DNA of 64,000 nt, from the NCBI GenBank assembly GCA_000002445.1, contig CH464491.1, positions 1,376,001 through 1,440,000 on the forward strand, given 5' to 3'. Of this stretch, positions 21,633-36,521 are shown one piece after another (the first letter of the stretch is position 1; each line of letters begins with the position of its first letter). The notes under the pieces were generated by a model that worked only from the letters and a program-made list of their open reading frames with translations, ran no database searches and had not been told where the DNA came from. The stretch is from Trypanosoma brucei. Lineage: Eukaryota. Position numbers and translations under genes: made by a program.

Positions 21633-21717
21633 TCCTTCTTTACCATTCTTTACCCCCTTCTTGACGTTAGATAAGGACTAAGTTGTTTCAGTTTCAGGCC
21701 TTCTTTCCTCTTTGCAT
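21633..21717 (+). promoter_or_regulatory. polypyrimidine tracts + AG upstream of PPP phosphatase gene
   Basis: CATCCTTCTTTACCATTCTTTACCCCCTTCTTGACGTTAG and a second run TTGTTTCAGTTTCAGGCCTTCTTTCCTCTTTGCAT, immediately 5' of ATG 21718. Confidence 0.5.
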
Positions 21718-24219
21718 ATGGATTTAAACACAGTCGACGAGAGGTATGTATTTGTCACACCAGGCACAACCATACGCGTCGGTTGGGATGAGAACTGCGA
21801 TGTCGTTCTACCCGCACTGGGACCCTGTTTATTTAACGGCCGTTGCATTACTACTCGAAGGGGTTGTGATGTCCTCGTCTCGTGCACGACCGAAGGTGAC
21901 CTTCTGTTGGCGCTTACGGGTAATGGCATCCGCGTGATAATCAACGGCGTTCAGATAAAGCCGTCGTTTGCTCCCAGGAAGCTACCGCCGGGGGCCGTTG
22001 TTTCATTCAACAAACTCTCTCGGGAGTTTTCTTTTATCTTCGTTGCACGCGACTTGCGTGCGGCTAAGGCGGATGTGAAGCATGTGCCTCCGCCAGAAAA
22101 TTCCGCTGCCGATATTGCGCGCTTGGAGGAGTTTTTGTTAACCCTTAATCCGCAACCTCTTTTGTCCCACGCGCAGTTTGATCCGGAAAGTGCCTCGTTG
22201 CGGTCGCAGCACTTCGTGACTCTGGTTGATTCAGAGACCATTACGCACCAAAAGGTGAGCACAGATGAAACCTTACCGTCAACCCTAACCGTGACAGAGG
22301 TGGCGCCCACGGAAGAAGAGCTTGTCGCTGACGCGCGCACCAGTGCTCAAAGCCTAACAAGTCAAAGTGTGTCGCTGCATAATTATGTGAGGCGCTTTTC
22401 CACTAGCGGTGGGTTCACAAGCCTCTACTACAATGAGGAAGCAGAATTTTTGCAACCCCATCCAACTCCGTATCGTCAACAAGGTTTGTTGAACAACGTT
22501 GGAGCATCCCCGCACATTATTTCGTCTGTCGTTGTTGAACTTTGGGGTCGACGTGTGGCACTGCGCAACGTCGCTGATTTTTGCGATTCGAACGTGGACC
22601 AGCCTCAGATAAATCTAACAGGCGATGCGGAAGATCTCAATGGTGCCGAAACAAATCCATACATAACGTTTCATGGTGTAAAGAAAATGGGAGGAAGGCA
22701 ACAACGATGCATGGATAAGGAGATCCGTTCTGCCGCAGAAAACGTTTTGGAGTATCTCAACGATGCTTATGAGAGTGACGACGACAACTTTATCGAACTT
22801 CCTCAGCAAACAAAAGATAAGATTTTTGAATATTTCCTGCTTCTGGCAACTCACATGATGAAAGCAGTAAAAGCGATGCCCGTAGCGCTACGACTTACCT
22901 CTCCTGTTGTATGCTGTGGTGACGTGCACGGTAGTTTTTCTGATCTCAAACAAATCTTTGATAACGTTGTCCCCTTCAAACACTGGTCGCTTATGACGAG
23001 GCCGGTGTTATTCCTTGGAGATTACGTGGATCGGGGCCCACATGATGTTGAGGTAATGCTTTTTTTGTTCGCATGGTGCACTTTGTGTCCCGAAAACGTG
23101 TTTTTGCTTCGAGGTAATCATGAGGATGACCGGGTGAATGGTGATACGGAGCTCTATGGCGAAACGTCATTCCTGGTTAAGTGTTTGACCTTTTTCGGTG
23201 AGGAGAAAGGTAGCATATTTTGGAGACGCGTTAACGATGTTTTTGCAGTGCTTCCCCTAGTGGCCATAATTGATGACACGACTTTTGTGTGCCATGGTGG
23301 TATTCCGCGACTTCGTGGGAGACAGCTCGTGCAAGCTGGCACCACGATGGGCGACAATGAAGATGGAGGGAACGCAGCAGCTCCATTTCCGGAATGGAAA
23401 CTTTGGCAAGAACACGGTGCAGAGAATGGTAACTCGTCGTACAGTTGCGATGGGCTTTCCTCTACCAATGATGCGATTGCACAAGTTGAAGATGATATCC
23501 CTGGGGAGGATTTGATGCAAGAGCTTTTGGAGAGTGTACCTGGTGGCCCGGGTGATGTTCGTTTTTACAGTGTTATGCCAGATGATAACGATGACTGCCT
23601 GACTGCTAAGCGCCGGCGCATTGCTCGTGAGTTACTTTGGAACGATCCGTGTACGACCCCATCGTTGCGTAAGAGACACTCGCTTCCACAAGGTGTGTCG
23701 GATATGATGGGATCTTTTACAGACGAGGAAAGTGGTAATATGGCTGCAGTAATGCCGCTGCCGCAGCGAAATGGTTTCAATTCTCAAGGTTTCCGCTGCA
23801 ACCACGCGCGCGGTTGTTCGGTAGATACTTTCCATGAGTTCAATTCGTTTGCACTTGATAACTTTCTGCAGCGGTGGGGGTTCACATTGGTGATACGTGC
23901 GCACGAGCAGAAGGATGCTGGGTTGGAGGTGGGGCTCGCTCAGCGTGTCCTCACACTCTTCTCCTGTAGTAATTACACTGGTGGCGACAATAATGGTGGG
24001 GCTTGTGTTATTGTCGGTGGTGAAGTGCGTCCCGTGTCATGGCGTCGCCCTTGTCCCGTGCTGGGCAGGAGTCCCTCAGCAGATGATCCCGATATTTGGA
24101 AAATGAAGCGCTTGAGGGAGGAGGTTGGCCGCAACAATTCGTGCAGCTCTTATCTGCATTTCCCCGGGCCTCAAATCGTGCCGTCTTATGTCGGTAAACC
24201 TGTGGTTAACCTTGATTGA
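21718..24219 (+). CDS. PPP-family Ser/Thr protein phosphatase with N-terminal FHA-like domain and large catalytic-domain insertions
   Basis: PPP catalytic motifs are all present: GDVHG, GDYVDRG, GNHE, HGG, LLWNDP, RG..F, RAHE. The N-terminal ~100 aa resemble an FHA fold (GNGIRVIINGVQI...LPPGAVVSF). The track start 21712 is TTG, so the first ATG is 21718. Confidence 0.8.
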   Translation: MDLNTVDERYVFVTPGTTIRVGWDENCDVVLPALGPCLFNGRCITTRRGCDVLVSCTTEGDLLLALTGNGIRVIINGVQIKPSFAPRKLPPGAVVSFNKLSREFSFIFVARDLRAAKADVKHVPPPENSAADIARLEEFLLTLNPQPLLSHAQFDPESASLRSQHFVTLVDSETITHQKVSTDETLPSTLTVTEVAPTEEELVADARTSAQSLTSQSVSLHNYVRRFSTSGGFTSLYYNEEAEFLQPHPTPYRQQGLLNNVGASPHIISSVVVELWGRRVALRNVADFCDSNVDQPQINLTGDAEDLNGAETNPYITFHGVKKMGGRQQRCMDKEIRSAAENVLEYLNDAYESDDDNFIELPQQTKDKIFEYFLLLATHMMKAVKAMPVALRLTSPVVCCGDVHGSFSDLKQIFDNVVPFKHWSLMTRPVLFLGDYVDRGPHDVEVMLFLFAWCTLCPENVFLLRGNHEDDRVNGDTELYGETSFLVKCLTFFGEEKGSIFWRRVNDVFAVLPLVAIIDDTTFVCHGGIPRLRGRQLVQAGTTMGDNEDGGNAAAPFPEWKLWQEHGAENGNSSYSCDGLSSTNDAIAQVEDDIPGEDLMQELLESVPGGPGDVRFYSVMPDDNDDCLTAKRRRIARELLWNDPCTTPSLRKRHSLPQGVSDMMGSFTDEESGNMAAVMPLPQRNGFNSQGFRCNHARGCSVDTFHEFNSFALDNFLQRWGFTLVIRAHEQKDAGLEVGLAQRVLTLFSCSNYTGGDNNGGACVIVGGEVRPVSWRRPCPVLGRSPSADDPDIWKMKRLREEVGRNNSCSSYLHFPGPQIVPSYVGKPVVNLD

Positions 24220-28804: not shown

Positions 28805-29914
28805 ATGTCGGATCTCCGTCGAGTTGAGAGTCTGAACGCGGACACCTTCCGCCGACTCAACGCAACCTCCGTTGTGAAGTCTTTTTGGCACACTCAACTA
28901 CGAGCTGCAACGGCTGCATCACGTGGAGCCAAGGACGATTCACTTGCGACTGCTAATGAAGAAACACCTGTTGCCACCAGAAAGCTGCGTTCAGCGGCCT
29001 CATCTGCGGAGAAGAGTGCAGGAGGGCTCACAGACTCTACGGTGTACAGTAGCAGCAGCAGTAGTAGTAACTCACGCTTATCTGTGAGCGCCACTCTCCC
29101 CGGGTTTCCCTCTCCAACAGAAACGCGCCGTCGTCTACGGGCCGCAGCGCTGTCGGCAGAGCGCCACCGTGCTGAGGAGTCGGATGAAGAGAAACCTGAT
29201 CCCGTTGCGAGAACGCTGTTTCAGAACTTTTTACTGCAGGAGTATGATGCTCTCGACAGCCGCCCAGTTCTTACAGTTGTTCTTGATTTGGACGAGACAC
29301 TTGTGAGCAACCGTGACTCTGGAGCTACCGGTGCAATTCTTCGACCCTACTGTCTGCACATGTTGAATGCTTTGCGGCACATGCAGGGACTAGAGGTTGT
29401 ACTTTGGACTGCTTCAACCAAGGAAACGGCGGCCCCCGTAATTCGACAGCTTAGTCAGAGTGGCCCCGTCTTTGATGATGTCATTTGCCGCAATAGCTCG
29501 TGGTTTACGGAGCCGTTGCATACCAAAGATCTCCGACTACTGGGTCGTGACATGAGCCGGGTAATAATCTTCGATAATTCCACTGCCTGCTGCAAACTGA
29601 ACCCGCGTAATGCTGTTATTGTTGATGACTTCCGTGGTGTTCGCAACACATCTGACGCAGCTCTGGTGAACGTGTACTACATAATTGAGCGCTCCTTTAA
29701 TGGCTGTTGCGCAGGTGTTTCGGTGCTGGAGACGTTGGTGAAGTTAGCTGTGGAGAAACAGTTGTGTATGCCGGAAGTGCTCCACCTTCCTGAGTCATGG
29801 AGGCATATTCCACTGAGGGAAATCGCGCCACTAAAGGTACCACCGCATGGTATTTTCTTTCGAGCGCACAGTACCCCGCTTAATGACAGCATTATGCAGC
29901 ACTGGACGGTGTAA
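28805..29914 (+). CDS. NLI-interacting-factor (NIF/FCP1-like) HAD-family phosphatase domain protein
   Basis: The catalytic DxDx(T/V) motif is in LTVVLDLDETLVSNR, followed by a NIF-like core (LEVVLWTASTKETAAPVIRQL...VIIFDNS). The N-terminal ~150 aa are low-complexity with a poly-Ser run. Confidence 0.75.
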   Translation: MSDLRRVESLNADTFRRLNATSVVKSFWHTQLRAATAASRGAKDDSLATANEETPVATRKLRSAASSAEKSAGGLTDSTVYSSSSSSSNSRLSVSATLPGFPSPTETRRRLRAAALSAERHRAEESDEEKPDPVARTLFQNFLLQEYDALDSRPVLTVVLDLDETLVSNRDSGATGAILRPYCLHMLNALRHMQGLEVVLWTASTKETAAPVIRQLSQSGPVFDDVICRNSSWFTEPLHTKDLRLLGRDMSRVIIFDNSTACCKLNPRNAVIVDDFRGVRNTSDAALVNVYYIIERSFNGCCAGVSVLETLVKLAVEKQLCMPEVLHLPESWRHIPLREIAPLKVPPHGIFFRAHSTPLNDSIMQHWTV

Positions 29915-31400: not shown

Positions 31401-34400
31401 ATGCCGCCGCGACCAGCAAAGGGACGTGCCGCGTTGTCATTTGTTGCATCTCGTGGTATTCCAGACAGCTTAGAGAGTTTTTTGGGCGATTTTTCACAAC
31501 CCGTCAAGAGCAACACAGAAGGGTCCGCTATGATGGAGGTGAATCTGAAGTTGCTGCAGAAAAGCAATGAAACAACCGTGCTCAAAGCTCTCGTGGAGCT
31601 GAACCGGGGGGCATCTGCTATGTCGGAGGAGGAGTTGGTGCATTACTTGCCGCAAGTCGTCGAGGCGGTCGTGCGGCACGCGGAGCACTCAAATGCATCG
31701 GTTCGCTCGGGTGTGTTTGCGCTACTGCATGAGTTTCTGTTACGCGGTTCATTGCTCCAACAAGCTGTGACCAAGCGCTTACCGAAACTTGCTTCTGCAT
31801 GGGTAAGTCGCATGTGTGACATGGAGCCGTCTGTACGCAGGGATGCATCGGATGCATTTAACGCTGCATACACTACGGAAGTACTTAAGCAACATGCAGA
31901 CAGTATTGTAACCGATCTTATTAGCAATTATGAGGAAATCATTGCCCAGAGCCGTGGAAAACCACTGCAGGATGACACGTTGGACCGTCGGTCGAACGCC
32001 CTCTACTCCTGCGTATGCGCTATGGGGCACATGTTACGTGTGGGTGCCCCTGCCTCGGCATGTCATAAGGTCATTGAGTTTGTAGAAGGGAATTCAGTGC
32101 AGCCGATTATGCCGCCACCTGAGGGGGTTACCAAAGGAAGTATGGTTGTTAAAGCTCCAGTTGTAAGGTCTGCTTCACTTATACTTCTGCGTGACATTCT
32201 TTCCTCAAAGCTGGCAACTTTAAGAGTTCATCAGCAGGTTTCTACTGCTTTATACAACGCGATGTCCGACCGTTGCGCTGTGGTACTCCGTAGGGCGTGG
32301 GAGCTTCAACTACTTTGGTTTGGTAGTGACTCTTCCAGTGCATTGTCTCACATGCAAGGCGGATTTCTCCGTGTGGTGATGAACAGTATCACGGATTGCA
32401 ACGACCCTGAGGTGGCAGAGATTATTTACCCGTCACTCGTACCATTGCTTGTTCCAGTCACTCGTTCTTCAGCCTTCGCCAGCGCGATTGAGGAATTCAG
32501 CGAGGTGCTTCAACGCAAGATCCTAAATGTCAGTGATGTGGTACAGCGGGAATGGGATTTAGTGCTTTCCTCACTAATGCGTGTGTGGGAACTTCGGTGT
32601 GTCCGCTCAGCGAAGCTAGGGGAGGGACACGAACGCGAAGGCGCCACGATGTTTTCTTCTATAGTAGCAACACTGGCCACAGCTCTCGAACAACCAGCGC
32701 GGCGGGGACGGCTTCTCAGCACAACAGCCTCCGTCGTAGCACAGACATTGGAGCGTGTAGCTCGTCATACTGAGTGCTTCAGTGAATGTGTGCAACTCTT
32801 GTGTGGCCCCACGGACTCTTTTTCTCAACGGACTGGTGGAGGGGCAAGCGCTGCACTGGTGGAAAGCTTCGATGTACTTCAGGCGGCATTAATTGGCTCT
32901 TCTGTGAGTTTACCGGGCGTGCTTGTCGGGGCGGAAACGCTTATGGCAAAGTACGTGGAAAAGAAACAATGGAACATTCTTGCGGAACTGTTGCAGTCAA
33001 TGACAGACGCGTATGGAAGTTGTGTTCGCGAAGAGCATGCACATTCTCCCGTGGGTATCCCTTCTAAAGAGATTCAAAAACTTGTTACGAACGGTGTTTT
33101 ACGTGCTGTGAGACTGAGCATATCAGCAGAGCGGAAGGATAGTGATGGGGTGGAACCGATGCACCCCCTTCAGCGGGTTCTCTCTTACGTCCTACAGTGG
33201 AGTGACGATGATGCACTTAGTGAACTGCAACAGATCGCTGCCACCGTGGGACCGGGACCGTTTTGGTTGAAGGATTTACTTCGAAGTCACGAGTTAAGGG
33301 ATCCTGAGCGGTTGATCACTTTGTTTTCAAAAGCTTGTGAGGAAGCTGACTTTCGTACAGTGGAGCTATGTGTGGATTCGCTTCTCGGCGAACAGGAGGT
33401 TAACCCCCGCCCACTGACGAGTGCCGAGAAGAAGGGGCTCAGGCAGGCTGTTCAGGAGTCGTTGCGGAAACTACACCTGCTAGTGTCGGTCGACAACGAT
33501 GAAAGTGAGGAAGAAGCAGAGGAGTCCTCCAAGGAAGGTGACAGCGGATCGGGTTACGATGGCAGCGGGGCAGGTGACAGCAGTGGTGACGAAGGTAGCG
33601 AAGGCGCTGCGGAGGCTGACGGTAGTGGAAATGAAGGCGACTCAAATAGCGGCACTTTGGTTCAACAGCAGCTCATCGCATGGGCGAGGTTTCTACGGAG
33701 TGGCGAGCCCTTCGCTTCACTTCTGGAAGTCAGTAGCGAGGACATCGATTTACCAATGGTATTCCGCATCGTTGCTTCCATCGCTCCGCGGTTGCATGCA
33801 GAGCAATACATGTCTATTAAGGCACTTCGCATGGCCCTGCAAATGGAAGAGGACCCACTTCTGGTGGCGATGTCAAAGAAAATACATTCTATCGATTCGA
33901 AGGCCTTCAATGTAGTCGTGGAGTCTATCGAACAACTGCTCAACTCGTACGGCGTCTCAGTGGAAGAGAGAGATACTGTATCACTGGAGTTGTTTGATAG
34001 TGTCATGAGCGACCCGCAGAGTAGCATCGCAGCGTGTGGGAGGCTGCAGCACATTGTGCCCTTCGCTTCTTGTAGTCTGATCCAAGGAATTGCGTGCAGC
34101 GGCGACGTCTGGTTGGAGCACCAAGTTCACCTACGTGCAAATGTGGCTGCCACAGGGACTGGGAAAGTACCGTTTGCGTTGTTGGATCAGTACTCTCCAC
34201 TATGCGGAATCGTACCATCAATGTTGCGTTGTGTACGAACCTCTCAACTGATTCACTTGCTTGCTTCCTCGGTGGAACTTAACTCAGCGAGTGCCGCTGT
34301 TGTTGGGCGGCCCCTGTTGCACGCCGCCCACGTGCAGGAGGTGCTGGCTGAGCCAACGAGGAGGCTGCTCGTGACAAAGCTGCTGCCGCGTGTCTTACTC

Positions 34401-36521
34401 TCCATCTCATCGCCCAAAGAAGTAGACACACTGCTCCTACGCGGAGAGGAGGTGCACAAACTTCTGTTTACGCTTGCTGTCGTGATCCGGGATACCGCAG
34501 TTCACTCCAGTGGTGACGCGTTCAACTCTAGCGTCCGGTGCATTGTAAGCACCATTACACAGTGGATTGCCGAAGCCGCTCTTCTGCATGTGGGCGATGC
34601 GCCGACACATGAAGAAGCTATTCGCCATTATCGTGCGTTATTTTCTACACTGGATGAAGCTGCTGACATTGTTGGGGATTCTTTTCTCGCTAAAGTTCCT
34701 TCTGGCGAAGCTGCTTCTGCTATTCAAGAATCTATGTGCATGATCCCTACACTGCATCCCAATACGGGATTGCTCGCGATGACGCTTCACAGGCATCTAA
34801 GTCATTTACCAGTTGTGAGGGGTGATACTGTCCGTCAGGTTATTGACTACGCCAGGAAAAAAAAGCCTCTCGATGGCCTCGAATTCCTGGCGGAACTCAC
34901 TTCCAGTCGCATTATTGACACGGAGGCCTACAACGAGCTTGTGCATGTCTTCACACGCTTGCTAGCGAGTTCCTTCAGACTTCGCTATATGCCACCGAAT
35001 AATTGCCTTGTTTCTCAAGCACCGAATGATGCACCCATTTCGTTATGCGATACTCAACGTGCAGTTGTCGCCGTTGTTTCGGCAAGGCGTGGTATTAACT
35101 TGCACAACCGCGTTGATGATACGTTACGGAGCTCCATAAATCTTGTGTTGTTCGACGCTGTGGCAGGATCTGTGGTTTCACTTAAGCAGGCGAACGAGGA
35201 GGAACTGTCACTCATGACTAAACTCATTGCCTTCACCTCGAACTGCCTTAGTGATTTGGGCTCGTCGGATGTGACGGTTCTGCGGGCTTCGGAGGTAAGC
35301 GTCACGAAGGTGGCTGCAGTTATGAATTATGCCTATCAGTGGCTCTGCGCCACCTCTATTACTCGGTTAGACAGCATTGGGATGGAGACTGTGACAAGTG
35401 CTATTCGCGCTATCGCGCTGCTTTCTAACTTAACACTCGTGCGCTCTGGGTTCGTTCTGCTTCCCATCATGCGGCCGATAACGGGAAGACGCTCAATGAA
35501 GGACATTCGGGAGGAGTTTAGTTCAAAGTCACCGGCAAAAGCAATAATATTCCGGAGGCAGGCGGCTGTAATTGCCAAAACGAACAAGCAAAAGTTAACC
35601 CTCTTTCCGCACTTGCTTGCGTGGTGTGTAACGCTCAGTGGTCCTGTGCAGGAGCGTGTAAGCAAAGAATGGCGAGAGGAAGTTTTTCAACTTCTTGACG
35701 TCTTATGCGCACTATTGCTTTCCCCGGCTGTACCAGGAAGCAAGCGGGTTGAAAATACATACCTTTGTAACGGTAATGGTAGTAGTGGTGCTGGTGAGCA
35801 GCTGGGTTTCGAAATAATTGCGTTAACACGTCCCAATGCAGCAGATCCCATGCGTGAGTTGGCGAAGGGCGCCGCCGCCGTCTTTGCCCTTTTGTTGCAG
35901 AGCAGCACACTTTCCATTGTCAAGAGTTGGCTTGAGACTGTGGAGCGAAAACTGCAGGACTATTTTTATACATTTGTAGAGGAGCACTTGTCACCATGTC
36001 TCATACGAGAGAGCCTCCTCATGGTGTTAAGCAAGAACCCAACCGGGGGCTCGACCTTCGACGTGAACGAAAGGTACACCGTGTCCGTGTGCACCTTGAG
36101 GAATCGCATTACACTTAAATATACGGTGGAAGATACAGATTCAACGGTTCATATAGAATTTAAGCCTGATTTCCCGTTAAGGCCCCCGGTGGTCACATGT
36201 GAAAAGACACGGGGCTGCGGGGTATCCGCGGACAAATGGCACGTGTGGATGCGGAAAATGACTGTATTGCTTTTCGGTGGGTCATCCAATGTATGGGACT
36301 GTGTGATGCTCTTCGGCAGGAATATGGACGAGCACTTTTCCGGTAAAGATCCTTGCCCCATTTGTTTTGCTATCGTTTCAGCTTCGAGTAATCGTCTTCC
36401 CGATATGCAGTGTGCAGTGTGCCGTAACTCTGCAATACACTCCGATTGCCTCTACTCGTGGTGGGCGACCGGGGGGCGAACCGTGTGCCCGCTTTGTCGT
36501 TCCCCATGGGTAGCAACCTAA
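31401..36521 (+). CDS. LTN1: Listerin (LTN1/Rkr1)-like RING E3 ubiquitin ligase, ribosome-associated quality control
   Basis: 1706 aa of mostly HEAT-like helices. The extreme C-terminal RING-H2 CPICFAIVSASSNRLPDMQCAVCRNSAIHSDCLYSWWATGGRTVCPLCRSPW matches the Listerin RING (CPICY...LP...C..C.N.FH..CLYKWF....CPLCR) in spacing and residues. An acidic Ser/Gly/Asp/Glu-rich insert sits mid-protein. Confidence 0.75.
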   Translation: MPPRPAKGRAALSFVASRGIPDSLESFLGDFSQPVKSNTEGSAMMEVNLKLLQKSNETTVLKALVELNRGASAMSEEELVHYLPQVVEAVVRHAEHSNASVRSGVFALLHEFLLRGSLLQQAVTKRLPKLASAWVSRMCDMEPSVRRDASDAFNAAYTTEVLKQHADSIVTDLISNYEEIIAQSRGKPLQDDTLDRRSNALYSCVCAMGHMLRVGAPASACHKVIEFVEGNSVQPIMPPPEGVTKGSMVVKAPVVRSASLILLRDILSSKLATLRVHQQVSTALYNAMSDRCAVVLRRAWELQLLWFGSDSSSALSHMQGGFLRVVMNSITDCNDPEVAEIIYPSLVPLLVPVTRSSAFASAIEEFSEVLQRKILNVSDVVQREWDLVLSSLMRVWELRCVRSAKLGEGHEREGATMFSSIVATLATALEQPARRGRLLSTTASVVAQTLERVARHTECFSECVQLLCGPTDSFSQRTGGGASAALVESFDVLQAALIGSSVSLPGVLVGAETLMAKYVEKKQWNILAELLQSMTDAYGSCVREEHAHSPVGIPSKEIQKLVTNGVLRAVRLSISAERKDSDGVEPMHPLQRVLSYVLQWSDDDALSELQQIAATVGPGPFWLKDLLRSHELRDPERLITLFSKACEEADFRTVELCVDSLLGEQEVNPRPLTSAEKKGLRQAVQESLRKLHLLVSVDNDESEEEAEESSKEGDSGSGYDGSGAGDSSGDEGSEGAAEADGSGNEGDSNSGTLVQQQLIAWARFLRSGEPFASLLEVSSEDIDLPMVFRIVASIAPRLHAEQYMSIKALRMALQMEEDPLLVAMSKKIHSIDSKAFNVVVESIEQLLNSYGVSVEERDTVSLELFDSVMSDPQSSIAACGRLQHIVPFASCSLIQGIACSGDVWLEHQVHLRANVAATGTGKVPFALLDQYSPLCGIVPSMLRCVRTSQLIHLLASSVELNSASAAVVGRPLLHAAHVQEVLAEPTRRLLVTKLLPRVLLSISSPKEVDTLLLRGEEVHKLLFTLAVVIRDTAVHSSGDAFNSSVRCIVSTITQWIAEAALLHVGDAPTHEEAIRHYRALFSTLDEAADIVGDSFLAKVPSGEAASAIQESMCMIPTLHPNTGLLAMTLHRHLSHLPVVRGDTVRQVIDYARKKKPLDGLEFLAELTSSRIIDTEAYNELVHVFTRLLASSFRLRYMPPNNCLVSQAPNDAPISLCDTQRAVVAVVSARRGINLHNRVDDTLRSSINLVLFDAVAGSVVSLKQANEEELSLMTKLIAFTSNCLSDLGSSDVTVLRASEVSVTKVAAVMNYAYQWLCATSITRLDSIGMETVTSAIRAIALLSNLTLVRSGFVLLPIMRPITGRRSMKDIREEFSSKSPAKAIIFRRQAAVIAKTNKQKLTLFPHLLAWCVTLSGPVQERVSKEWREEVFQLLDVLCALLLSPAVPGSKRVENTYLCNGNGSSGAGEQLGFEIIALTRPNAADPMRELAKGAAAVFALLLQSSTLSIVKSWLETVERKLQDYFYTFVEEHLSPCLIRESLLMVLSKNPTGGSTFDVNERYTVSVCTLRNRITLKYTVEDTDSTVHIEFKPDFPLRPPVVTCEKTRGCGVSADKWHVWMRKMTVLLFGGSSNVWDCVMLFGRNMDEHFSGKDPCPICFAIVSASSNRLPDMQCAVCRNSAIHSDCLYSWWATGGRTVCPLCRSPWVAT

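What the first reader, a model, noticed from the sequence alone, without database searches (positions are those of the whole stretch)
21718..24219. PPP-family phosphatase fused to an FHA-like N-domain and carrying two large insertions in the catalytic core
All metal and phosphate-binding PPP motifs are intact (GDVHG, GDYVDRG, GNHE, HGG, RG, RAHE), so it is likely active. About 100 aa (HGGIPRL...ARELLWNDP, acidic and Gly-rich) are inserted between HGG and LLWNDP. About 60 aa are inserted between LLWNDP and the RG..F segment. The N-terminal 100 aa have an FHA-like signature (GNGIRVIINGVQI...GAVVSF), implying phosphothreonine-directed targeting. This is an atypical, probably lineage-specific PPP architecture of 835 aa.
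Basis: partly seen in the sequence, partly recalled or inferred. Interest (0 to 1): 0.55.

Follow-up and report, generated by a model that had tools for sequence, protein, structure and literature searches.

The report
Trypanosome phosphatase with degenerate FHA domain
This is the already catalogued but unstudied Trypanosoma brucei gene Tb11.02.2630: a probably active PP1-like protein phosphatase with an FHA-fold domain at its N-terminus that lacks the usual phosphothreonine-binding residues, plus two fast-evolving floppy loops in the catalytic domain, so it is a lineage-specific variant rather than a new kind of enzyme.

Summary
The ORF is real. It encodes 833 aa (not 835) and is 100% identical to T. 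b. brucei TREU927 XP_828574.1/Q385R9, which is Tb11.02.2630, a 'kinetoplastid-specific PPP' (kPPP) catalogued in 2007. All PPP catalytic motifs are intact and invariant in eight Trypanosoma orthologues.

They are predicted disordered loops (aa 536-589 and 648-684). Net gain over PP1 is about 82 and 46 aa, not 100 and 60. Their positions are conserved, but length (24-54 and 21-37 aa) and sequence (29% identity or less) are not.

In T. brucei the key phosphothreonine-binding residues (Arg, Ser, His) are replaced, so phosphothreonine-directed targeting is not supported. The syntenic L. major gene reportedly has mutated catalytic motifs.

Verdict: real, mostly correctly read, moderately interesting, not a new kind.

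The parts
21718..24219 (+). Complete ORF, 833 aa plus stop. It is T. brucei Tb11.02.2630 / XP_828574.1 / UniProt Q385R9, a kinetoplastid-specific PPP (kPPP).
   Evidence: Exact identity look-up. Q385R9 is linked to Tb11.02.2630 in PMC2175518 supplement 1.
21739..22053 (+). N-terminal divergent FHA-fold domain (aa 8-112), with a degenerate phosphothreonine pocket.
22054..22524 (+). Ser/Thr-rich linker predicted disordered (aa 113-269).
   Evidence: pLDDT 23-40. 21% S+T. 17-23% identity among the seven Trypanosoma orthologues, length 117-162 aa.
22525..22575 (+). Conserved beta-hairpin element (aa 270-286, VVELWGRRVALRNV) inside the linker.
   Evidence: 41-53% identity, fixed 17-aa length in all Trypanosoma orthologues. 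Predicted strands 271-276 and 279-284 at low confidence.
22576..22710 (+). Second disordered stretch (aa 287-331), containing the conserved (D/N)PY-x-T motif at aa 313-317.
   Evidence: pLDDT below 50. T317 and G320 are nearly invariant.
22711..22884 (+). Pre-catalytic helices (aa 332-389), equivalent to the N-terminal helices of the PP1 core.
   Evidence: Helices 334-350 and 363-385, pLDDT 77-96. The PDB alignments start at aa 363-386.
22885..23322 (+). Catalytic core, first half (aa 390-535), with GDVHG, GDYVDRG, GNHE and HGG.
   Evidence: 67-77% identity among Trypanosoma orthologues. Catalytic residues invariant in 12 sequences.
23323..23484 (+). Insertion 1: disordered loop (aa 536-589) directly after the metal-ligand His526 strand.
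   Evidence: pLDDT 27-35. Length 24-54 aa in Trypanosoma and 0-29 aa in distant homologues, 19% identity or less.
23485..23658 (+). Ordered segment (aa 590-647), equivalent to PP1 residues ~177-210 plus a conserved ~27-aa extension (RF..MP...A..RR..RELLWNDP).
   Evidence: pLDDT 81-92, three helices. 40-66% identity among Trypanosoma orthologues. After insert 1 is deleted, 48 query residues still face 20-21 residues of BSU1 or PP1.
23659..23769 (+). Insertion 2: disordered loop (aa 648-684) between WNDP and the phosphate-binding Arg698.
   Evidence: pLDDT 28-32. 21-37 aa in Trypanosoma, 8-25 aa in distant homologues, 29% identity or less. Deleting it gives a near-colinear alignment from LLWNDP to the C-terminal end of the core with BSU1, PP1 and calcineurin.
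23770..24045 (+). Catalytic core, second half (aa 685-776), with R698-G699, RAHE (His729) and SNY (Tyr753).
   Evidence: 55-73% identity among Trypanosoma orthologues.
24046..24216 (+). Disordered C-terminal tail (aa 777-833), with a conserved P-S-Y-V-G motif at aa 822-826.
   Evidence: pLDDT 26-32. P822 is invariant in 12 sequences.

Best explanation
The gene encodes a catalytically competent Ser/Thr phosphatase of the PPP family. It belongs to the kinetoplastid-specific, BSU1/PP1-like 'kPPP' group.

Layout: FHA-fold domain (aa 8-112), then about 220 aa of mostly disordered Ser/Thr-rich linker with two short conserved elements, then the PP1-like catalytic domain (aa 332-776), then a disordered tail.

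Shown here:
- The identity of the gene.
- The intact catalytic residues.
- The FHA fold and profile-level FHA homology.
- The positions of the two loops, their predicted disorder and their poor conservation.

Inferred:
- The family began as a phosphothreonine-reader/phosphatase fusion, because two more distant homologues keep a canonical FHA with G-R, S-R-x-H and x-N-G.
- In the genus Trypanosoma the FHA-like domain is kept as a folded module of constant 105-aa length, but it has lost the phosphate-contacting Arg and Ser. It therefore most likely docks a partner or substrate without needing phosphothreonine, or through a non-canonical surface. It would hold the catalytic domain near targets through the flexible linker.
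- Insertion 2 lies in the loop that in PP1 borders the acidic groove, just before the phosphate-binding Arg. This placement comes from established PP1 structure knowledge and was not tested here. It could tune substrate access or carry regulatory phosphosites.
- Insertion 1 expands a loop that is also much longer than the median in a few unrelated homologues. It is probably a tolerated, fast-drifting disordered loop.
For: Identity: exact match to XP_828574.1/Q385R9, which is Tb11.02.2630, class kPPP. Neighbours fit: a DEAD-box helicase, a WD40 protein resembling a dynein intermediate chain, and a 369-aa NIF/FCP phosphatase. The FCP length matches Tb11.02.2650.

Active site: Metallophos 89 bits. 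BSU1 E 8.8e-34 and PP1 E ~3e-29. The catalytic part of the full-length model matches PP1 structures with TM 0.8, E 2e-20. D402, H404, D435, D438, R439, N467, H468, H526, R698, H729 and Y753 are invariant in 12 homologues.

FHA:
- Model pLDDT 79, pTM 0.71.
- All 50 listed Foldseek hits are FHA.
- hhalign of the eight Trypanosoma sequences alone against nine Pfam-verified FHA domains: 93.4%, E 2.5e-7, 91 aligned columns.
- P0022 and P0162 have PF00498 at 24.9 and 27.8 bits (cut-off 20.7), N-terminal to a PPP domain of the same subfamily.
- The contig that carries the P0162-type gene has the kinetoplastid marker RESC6 and a one-strand gene array.

Degenerate pocket: the column after G22 is W/V/T/S/T/L/T/P. 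The Ser column is F/L/L/S/F/A/V/I. The His column is R/C/R/H/H/H/H/I.

Loops.
Against: - No enzymatic, localisation or binding data were found for this gene under the identifiers searched.
- The FHA assignment rests on an AlphaFold model built from only nine sequences and on a pairwise hhalign. Pfam gives no hit for this protein.
- A Trypanosoma-only HMM does not detect the N-termini of P0009, P0022 or P0162.
- The loop that would carry S-x-x-H (aa 35-49) is the least confident part of the model, so residue mapping there could be off by one or two positions.
- T. brucei has a T67-G68-N69-G70 turn that could stand in for the canonical S-T-N-G Asn.
- Some FHA domains bind ligands by other surfaces, so phospho-dependent binding is not excluded.
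- The roles proposed for the insertions are inference only.
Confidence: 0.62

Rival explanations
1. One reading: the N-terminal domain is a working FHA phosphothreonine reader that brings the phosphatase to primed, phosphorylated targets. This would be like KAPP, or like NIPP1-PP1 but in one chain.
For: FHA fold and FHA profile homology. Two homologues of the same PPP subfamily keep a canonical FHA with G-R, S-R-x-H and x-N-G. T. brucei has a TGNG turn at aa 67-70 that resembles the canonical S-T-N-G. T. grayi keeps S-x-x-H.
Against: The Arg that contacts the phosphate is absent in all eight Trypanosoma sequences. In T. brucei the Ser is Phe39 and the His is Arg42. The TGNG turn is not conserved in any orthologue. 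Pfam FHA does not score this protein even at E<=10.
Confidence: 0.2
2. The protein is a pseudophosphatase or scaffold, as has been assumed for the kPPP group in reviews and as the L. major counterpart appears to be.
For: PMC5743797 lists the whole kPPP group, including LmjF.24.0270, as 'kSTP (pseudo)'. Table S5 of PMC2175518 gives LmjF24.0270 the motifs GDLLG / GNYVDVG / GPHE.
Against: The T. brucei protein has canonical GDVHG / GDYVDRG / GNHE / HGG / RG / RAHE. These residues are invariant in all 12 aligned homologues. Tb11.02.2630 and its T. cruzi orthologue are not in the list of mutated PPPs.
Confidence: 0.1
3. The N-terminal 'FHA' is not homologous to FHA. It is an unrelated small beta-sandwich, or an over-confident AlphaFold model.
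For: No Pfam hit. The profile search against PDB sequences gives only Dun1 FHA at E 0.55. A search of 1.84 billion representatives found no canonical FHA protein. The alignment behind the model is shallow, with nine sequences. The Foldseek E-values are weak, 8e-4 at best.
Confidence: 0.06
4. The insertions are assembly, frameshift or annotation artefacts.
For: Their composition is mildly biased and they are predicted disordered.
Against: Five independent T. brucei-group sequences have identical length with no indels. There is no tandem repeat in the ORF. The reading frame is open throughout. Every Trypanosoma orthologue has insertions at the same two sites.
Confidence: 0.02

Closest known systems
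Kinetoplastid-specific PPPs (kPPP; Brenchley et al. 2007, PMC2175518), including the studied paralogues KPP1 (flagellum inheritance and cytokinesis; PMC7653357, PMC9532997) and KKIP7 (metaphase kinetochore; PMC5294786)
   Same: Same catalytic subfamily. It is BSU1/PP1-like without Kelch repeats and has a long non-catalytic N-terminal region. This gene is itself listed as a kPPP. The ~27-aa extension between HGG and WxDP seems shared with paralogues: their HGG-to-WxDP distance is 51 aa against 33 in PP1.
   Different: KKIP7 is a different gene: its reported pS142 and pS275 fall on Thr142 and Leu275 here. The KPP1/KKIP7-type paralogues examined (P0024, P0039, P0040, P0057) have no FHA and lack the two long loops (distances 51 and 46 aa against 115 and 86). 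No functional study of this gene was found.
Arabidopsis BSU1/BSL (PPKL) phosphatases
   Same: Best solved-structure sequence match to the catalytic domain: 9tp7, E 8.8e-34, rising to 7.4e-37 once the loops are removed. Brenchley et al. noted the same affinity for kPPPs.
   Different: No Kelch domain: Pfam finds only Metallophos. The N-terminal module is FHA-like instead.
PP1 catalytic subunit
   Same: All catalytic residues and the fold are shared (TM ~0.8 on PP1). The alignment is colinear once the loops are removed.
   Different: About 82 and 46 extra residues in two loops, plus an FHA-like domain, linker and tail. Conservation of the RVxF-binding pocket was not examined.
FHA-guided phosphatases: Arabidopsis KAPP (FHA + PP2C in one chain; its FHA is PDB 1mzk) and NIPP1-PP1 (an FHA-bearing regulator bound to PP1; its FHA is PDB 2jpe)
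   Different: KAPP's catalytic domain is PPM/PP2C, not PPP. NIPP1 acts in trans. Both have canonical phosphothreonine-binding residues (the reference sequences were verified as PF00498), and the T. brucei domain lacks them.
FHA domains that work without canonical phosphothreonine binding (kinesin-3 KIF13 FHA, EssC/YukB, YscD, TIFAB)
   Different: They are not linked to a phosphatase domain, and no specific sequence relationship was shown.

Membership tests
PPP-family Ser/Thr phosphatase (Pfam PF00149 Metallophos, PP1/PP2A/PP2B-type) | Profile match above the curated cut-off | tested here: met
   89.3 bits against a cut-off of 21.5, aa 396-570.
PPP-family Ser/Thr phosphatase (Pfam PF00149 Metallophos, PP1/PP2A/PP2B-type) | Signature motifs GDxHG, GDxVDRG and GNHE, plus HGG, the phosphate-binding RG, the RAH His and the SxxNY Tyr | tested here: met
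   GDVHG 401, GDYVDRG 434, GNHE 466, HGG 526, RG 698, RAHE 727, SNY 751. They align to the PP1 and BSU1 equivalents and are invariant in 12 homologues.
PPP-family Ser/Thr phosphatase (Pfam PF00149 Metallophos, PP1/PP2A/PP2B-type) | PP1-like alpha/beta sandwich fold | tested here: met
   Foldseek matches of the AF2 model to PP1 structures: E ~2e-20, TM (on target length) 0.79-0.83. This rests on a predicted model only.
PPP-family Ser/Thr phosphatase (Pfam PF00149 Metallophos, PP1/PP2A/PP2B-type) | Metal-dependent phosphoprotein phosphatase activity | not testable with these tools
   Needs an enzyme assay.
kPPP group of the TriTryp phosphatome | Listed as kPPP; kinetoplastid-restricted clade with BSU1-like affinity | tested here: met
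   Q385R9/Tb11.02.2630 is listed as kPPP. BSU1 is the best PDB hit. The close full-length homologues found are all from Trypanosoma or from unnamed assembly contigs; one of those contigs (L002, the P0012/P0162 cluster) looks kinetoplastid. No phylogenetic tree was built here.
FHA domain (Pfam PF00498) | Profile match above the curated cut-off (20.7 bits) | tested here: not met
   No hit for the window protein at E<=10. Only 2 of 9 family N-termini give weak hits, best E 0.011. The homologues P0022 and P0162 do pass, at 24.9 and 27.8 bits.
FHA domain (Pfam PF00498) | Eleven-strand beta-sandwich FHA fold | tested here: met
FHA domain (Pfam PF00498) | Remote sequence homology to FHA profiles | tested here: met
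   hhalign of the Trypanosoma-only profile against nine Pfam-verified FHA domains: probability 93.4%, E 2.5e-7, 91 columns.
FHA domain (Pfam PF00498) | Conserved phosphothreonine-binding residues: G-R (beta3-beta4 loop), S-x-x-H (beta4-beta5 loop), Asn of S/T-x-N-G (beta6-beta7 loop) | tested here: not met
   Only Gly22 is kept. Arg is W23, and is never Arg in the eight species. Ser is F39, and Ser only in T. grayi. His is R42, and His in 4 of 8. Asn maps to I71. A non-conserved TGNG turn at aa 67-70 leaves the Asn ambiguous in T. brucei alone.
FHA domain (Pfam PF00498) | Binding of phosphothreonine peptides | not testable with these tools
   Needs a binding assay.
KKIP7 (kinetochore kPPP of T. 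brucei) | The same protein, that is, carrying the reported phosphosites pS142 and pS275 | tested here: not met
   Residue 142 is Thr and residue 275 is Leu in this protein.
BSU1/BSL (PPKL) Kelch phosphatases | N-terminal Kelch-repeat propeller | tested here: not met
   No Kelch family hit in the Pfam scan at E<=10.

The most novel reading that the evidence does not exclude
The FHA-PPP fusion of kinetoplastids has decayed in opposite ways in two parasite lineages. In Trypanosoma the phosphatase site is intact but the FHA phosphothreonine pocket has eroded. In Leishmania the syntenic gene (LmjF24.0270, 1337 aa) keeps a SMAD/FHA signature but has lost catalytic residues (GDLLG / GNYVDVG / GPHE). 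If so, one ancestral reader-plus-eraser enzyme was split into a phospho-independent targeted phosphatase in one lineage and a catalytically dead phospho-binding scaffold in the other.
Probability: 0.3. Interest if true: 0.5.

Novelty: new variant of a known kind. Interest (0 to 1): 0.3.

Why it matters
Trypanosomes regulate most of their biology after transcription, and their phosphatases are far less understood than their kinases. Reviews often treat the kPPP group as a set of pseudo-enzymes.

Three points follow from this work:
- One uncharacterised kPPP has a complete active site, which marks it as a likely real enzyme and worth testing.
- It carries a cis-fused FHA-fold module.
- Relatives with a canonical FHA exist, so the ancestor can be reconstructed.

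Together these give a concrete way to ask how phospho-reader domains lose or change specificity. TbPLK's Polo-box shows a similar loss of phosphopeptide-binding residues (PMC7653357).

The gene itself is already in the databases. The gain is annotation and a hypothesis, not a new class of system.

Tried and rejected
- Pfam scan of the whole protein at E<=10 found no FHA.
- Profile of the N-terminal family against PDB sequences: best hit Dun1 FHA at a non-significant E 0.55, followed by HUS1.
- HMM search of 1.84 billion representatives with the N-terminal profile returned only the family itself plus seven weak hits. On Pfam inspection these are repetitive beta-rich proteins (PEGA, DUF5122 propellers and similar), judged spurious.
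- The third word-index search, with the N-terminal and linker alignment A3, returned nothing, not even the query proteins. It was probably swamped by low-complexity words. The Leishmania orthologue sequence could therefore not be retrieved. What is said about it rests on PMC2175518 tables and on gene order.
- A Trypanosoma-only HMM and hhalign against the N-termini of P0009, P0022 and P0162 showed no significant direct link. The link runs only through the general FHA profile and the shared position in homologous proteins.
- The idea that this is KKIP7 was rejected on phosphosite mapping.
- The P0009 contig showed no synteny with the window's neighbours.
- Literature searches by old gene ID, UniProt and RefSeq accessions and T. 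cruzi IDs found no paper. Three KPP1 papers are not held, so KPP1's gene ID and domain layout were not verified.
- The afdb50 fold library was unavailable.
- An RVxF-like reading of the conserved VVELW hairpin was considered and dropped, because the basic and aromatic positions are not conserved across orthologues.
- Minus-strand ORFs at 21951-22340 and 23154-23468 were judged chance ORFs inside a conserved plus-strand gene.
Full report
**1. The observation**

Window 21718-24219 (+) is one open reading frame of 833 codons plus a stop. The six-frame lister gives 835 aa only because it starts at an in-frame TTG at 21712.

The listed motifs are all present: GDVHG (401), GDYVDRG (434), GNHE (466), HGG (526), LLWNDP (639), RG (698), RAHE (727) and SNY (751). 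Pfam reports a single family, Metallophos, at 89 bits (cut-off 21.5), and no FHA even at E<=10.

Against solved structures the best matches are Arabidopsis BSU1 (E 8.8e-34) and then PP1 isoforms (about 3e-29). Each match comes in two blocks, aa 378-532 and 708-770. Between these blocks the query has 175 residues where BSU1 has 50.

**2. Identity of the gene**

The protein is identical over its full length to T. brucei brucei TREU927 XP_828574.1 / EAN79462.1 / UniProt Q385R9. Near-identical 833-aa copies exist in T. b. gambiense and T. equiperdum. The T. equiperdum copy is annotated 'kinetoplastid-specific phospho-protein phosphatase'.

Supplement 1 of the TriTryp phosphatome paper (PMC2175518) lists Q385R9 as Tb11.02.2630, 833 aa, class kPPP. 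Its InterPro hits there include IPR008984, the SMAD/FHA superfamily. The paper says it set this signature aside as a poor match. The same signature is listed for T. cruzi Tc00.1047053507669.80 (771 aa) and L. major LmjF24.0270 (1337 aa).

The window's gene order is DEAD-box helicase, this phosphatase, a WD40 protein resembling a dynein intermediate chain, then a 369-aa NIF/FCP phosphatase. This fits Tb11.02.2630 to Tb11.02.2650 and LmjF24.0270 to LmjF24.0290. It also fits the L. infantum annotation of a 'dynein intermediate-chain-like protein' at LinJ.24.0270.

No paper about this gene was found under the identifiers tried.

It is not KKIP7, the kinetochore kPPP. KKIP7's reported pS142 and pS275 fall on Thr142 and Leu275 in this protein.

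**3. Catalytic domain and the two insertions**

Eight Trypanosoma orthologues (37-46% identity) and four more distant homologues were aligned. All metal-binding, phosphate-binding and proton-donor residues are invariant in the 12 sequences. Tb11.02.2630 is absent from the phosphatome paper's list of PPPs with mutated motifs. A full-length AlphaFold model places a confident PP1-like core that matches PP1 structures at TM about 0.8.

The model has pLDDT below 50 for aa 113-269, 287-331, 536-589, 648-684 and 777-833. Cutting out 536-589 and 648-684 raises the BSU1 score. It also gives a nearly gap-free alignment from LLWNDP to the end of the core with BSU1, PP1 and calcineurin.

Anchor distances size the insertions:
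- HGG to WxDP is 115 aa here, 33 in PP1, and a median of 51 in 149 homologues.
- WxDP to RAH is 86 aa here, the largest in that sample, 40 in PP1, and a median of 50.

The net gains are therefore about 82 and 46 aa over PP1. About 27 aa of the first gain form an ordered, conserved extension (RF..MP...A..RR..RELLWNDP). Paralogues appear to share it, because their HGG-to-WxDP distance is 51 aa.

The disordered parts are conserved in position but not otherwise:
- Insert 1 is 24-54 aa in Trypanosoma and 0-29 aa in distant homologues, with 19% identity or less.
- Insert 2 is 21-37 aa in Trypanosoma and 8-25 aa in distant homologues, with 29% identity or less.
- The flanking core is 55-77% identical.

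The insertions are not artefacts. Five independent T. brucei-group sequences have the same length without indels, and the ORF contains no tandem repeat. A few unrelated homologues also have very long HGG-to-WxDP distances (252, 146 and 132 aa), so that site seems to tolerate insertions.

From established PP1 structure knowledge, not tested here, the second site is the loop bordering the acidic groove, just before the phosphate-binding Arg.

**4. The N-terminal domain**

Sequence searches alone are weak:
- There is no Pfam hit for this protein.
- Two of nine family members touch PF00498, with a best E of 0.011.
- The family profile's best PDB hit is the Dun1 FHA at E 0.55.
- A scan of 1.84 billion representatives finds only the family itself plus spurious beta-rich repeats.

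Three other lines agree on FHA:
A profile of the eight Trypanosoma sequences alone aligns to them with hhalign probability 93.4%, E 2.5e-7, over 91 columns (the same result with P0009 included).
- Two more distant members of the same PPP subfamily, P0022 (960 aa) and P0162 (773 aa), carry a Pfam-significant FHA (24.9 and 27.8 bits, cut-off 20.7) N-terminal to the phosphatase domain. Both keep G-R, S-R-x-H and x-N-G. The contig holding the P0162-type gene also encodes RESC6 and has an almost entirely one-strand gene array, which points to a kinetoplastid.

A caveat applies. A Trypanosoma-only HMM does not detect those N-termini directly. The connection is through the general FHA profile and the shared position.

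**5. Is it a phosphothreonine reader?**

The hhalign mapping gives the following, and the eight Trypanosoma sequences align without gaps in this region:
- Gly22 is invariant.
- The Arg position is W, V, T, S, T, L, T or P in the eight species.
- The Ser position is F, L, L, S, F, A, V or I.
- The His position is R, C, R, H, H, H, H or I.
- The loop Asn maps to a hydrophobic column (I71).

T. brucei has a T-G-N-G turn two residues upstream that could mimic S-T-N-G, but no orthologue shares it. The loop that should carry S-x-x-H (aa 35-49) is about seven residues longer than in reference FHA domains, and it is the least confident part of the model.

The domain has a constant length of 105 aa and 30-38% identity across the genus. 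It therefore appears to be maintained as a fold while the canonical phosphate pocket is not. P0009 is intermediate: Arg is Lys, Ser is Leu, Asn is Gln, and His is kept.

**6. Leishmania**

I could not retrieve the sequence. According to Table S5 of PMC2175518, LmjF24.0270 has GDLLG / GNYVDVG / GPHE, so it is predicted to be catalytically dead. It is also 500 aa longer. That divergence probably explains why it never appeared among the PPP hits.

Its orthology with the window's gene is inferred from gene order, the shared product name and the shared InterPro signature. It is not shown by an alignment.

**7. Most likely mechanism**

The protein is most likely an active PP1/BSU1-like phosphatase. 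Its FHA-fold domain, joined by a long flexible Ser/Thr-rich linker, would dock partners or substrates without canonical phosphothreonine recognition. The two loops are fast-evolving disordered expansions. The second loop is placed where it could influence access to the acidic groove or be a regulatory target.

What is shown: gene identity, intact active-site residues, FHA fold and profile homology, a degenerate pocket, and the loop positions with their disorder and variability. What is inferred: enzymatic activity, the mode of targeting, and any role for the loops.

**8. Comparison and novelty**

The protein works like other phosphatases coupled to an FHA module, such as KAPP and NIPP1-PP1. 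It belongs to the kPPP group of PPPs. It fails two FHA family tests, the Pfam threshold and the binding residues, and passes the fold and profile tests.

Other euglenozoan PPP homologues found in the same searches carry different N-terminal modules. Plus-3 was confirmed in Perkinsela P0015. SAM, Kelch and EF-hand domains appear in precomputed Pfam lists. Swapping targeting modules onto this catalytic domain is therefore common.

The gene and its raw domain hits have been public since 2007. What is added here is evidence that the discarded FHA hit is real, that its pocket is degenerate, that canonical-FHA relatives exist, and that the insertions are variable disordered loops.

I rate it a new variant of a known kind, with modest interest.

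Noticed in passing
window 21718-24219; literature (PMC2175518 Table S5): The syntenic L. major gene LmjF24.0270 (1337 aa, also with a SMAD/FHA signature) is listed with mutated catalytic motifs GDLLG / GNYVDVG / GPHE. The Leishmania counterpart therefore looks like a pseudophosphatase, while the Trypanosoma copies are intact.
   Followed up: partly
L002:9319-11638 (+); proteins P0162, P0022: More distant members of the same PPP subfamily carry a canonical, Pfam-significant FHA domain. On contig L002 the gene caller split the gene into an FHA ORF (231 aa) and a PPP ORF (545 aa) that overlap by 14 nt. A sister contig encodes one 773-aa protein.
   Followed up: partly
window 24181-24195 (aa 822-826): A short motif, P-S-Y-V-G, lies about 10 residues from the C-terminus in an otherwise disordered tail. 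It is conserved across Trypanosoma orthologues, and Pro822 is invariant in all 12 aligned homologues. It may be a docking or modification motif.
   Followed up: no
window 22507-22575 and 22654-22668 (aa 264-286 and 313-317): Two conserved islands lie in the disordered linker: SPHxIxPxVVELxGxR, predicted as a beta-hairpin, and (D/N)PYxT. By eye, similar elements (for example V.LIENG....VPL..V and EADTPV) occur before the catalytic domain of the KPP1/KKIP7-type paralogues P0039, P0040, P0038 and P0015.
   Followed up: no
window 28805-29914 (+): A 369-aa NIF/FCP-type phosphatase gene lies two genes downstream of the PPP gene. The same arrangement of PPP, a dynein-intermediate-chain-like gene and FCP is indicated for T. 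cruzi and L. major by their gene numbering.
   Followed up: partly
window 23677-23679 (aa 654): Inside insert 2 the window (TREU927) has R-K-R-H-S-L-P, a basic-x-x-Ser pattern. The majority residue at position 654 in the five aligned T. brucei-group sequences is Pro rather than His.
   Followed up: no
window 31401-36521 (+): A 1706-aa ORF has a UBC-like domain and a weaker C-terminal RING-finger match that falls below Pfam's cut-off. It is probably a large E3 ligase-type protein.
   Followed up: no
window 21636-21654: A short 10-nt direct repeat (TTCTTTACCA, 1.9 copies) lies in the pyrimidine-rich region just upstream of the start codon. This is where a trans-splicing acceptor tract would be expected.
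   Followed up: no
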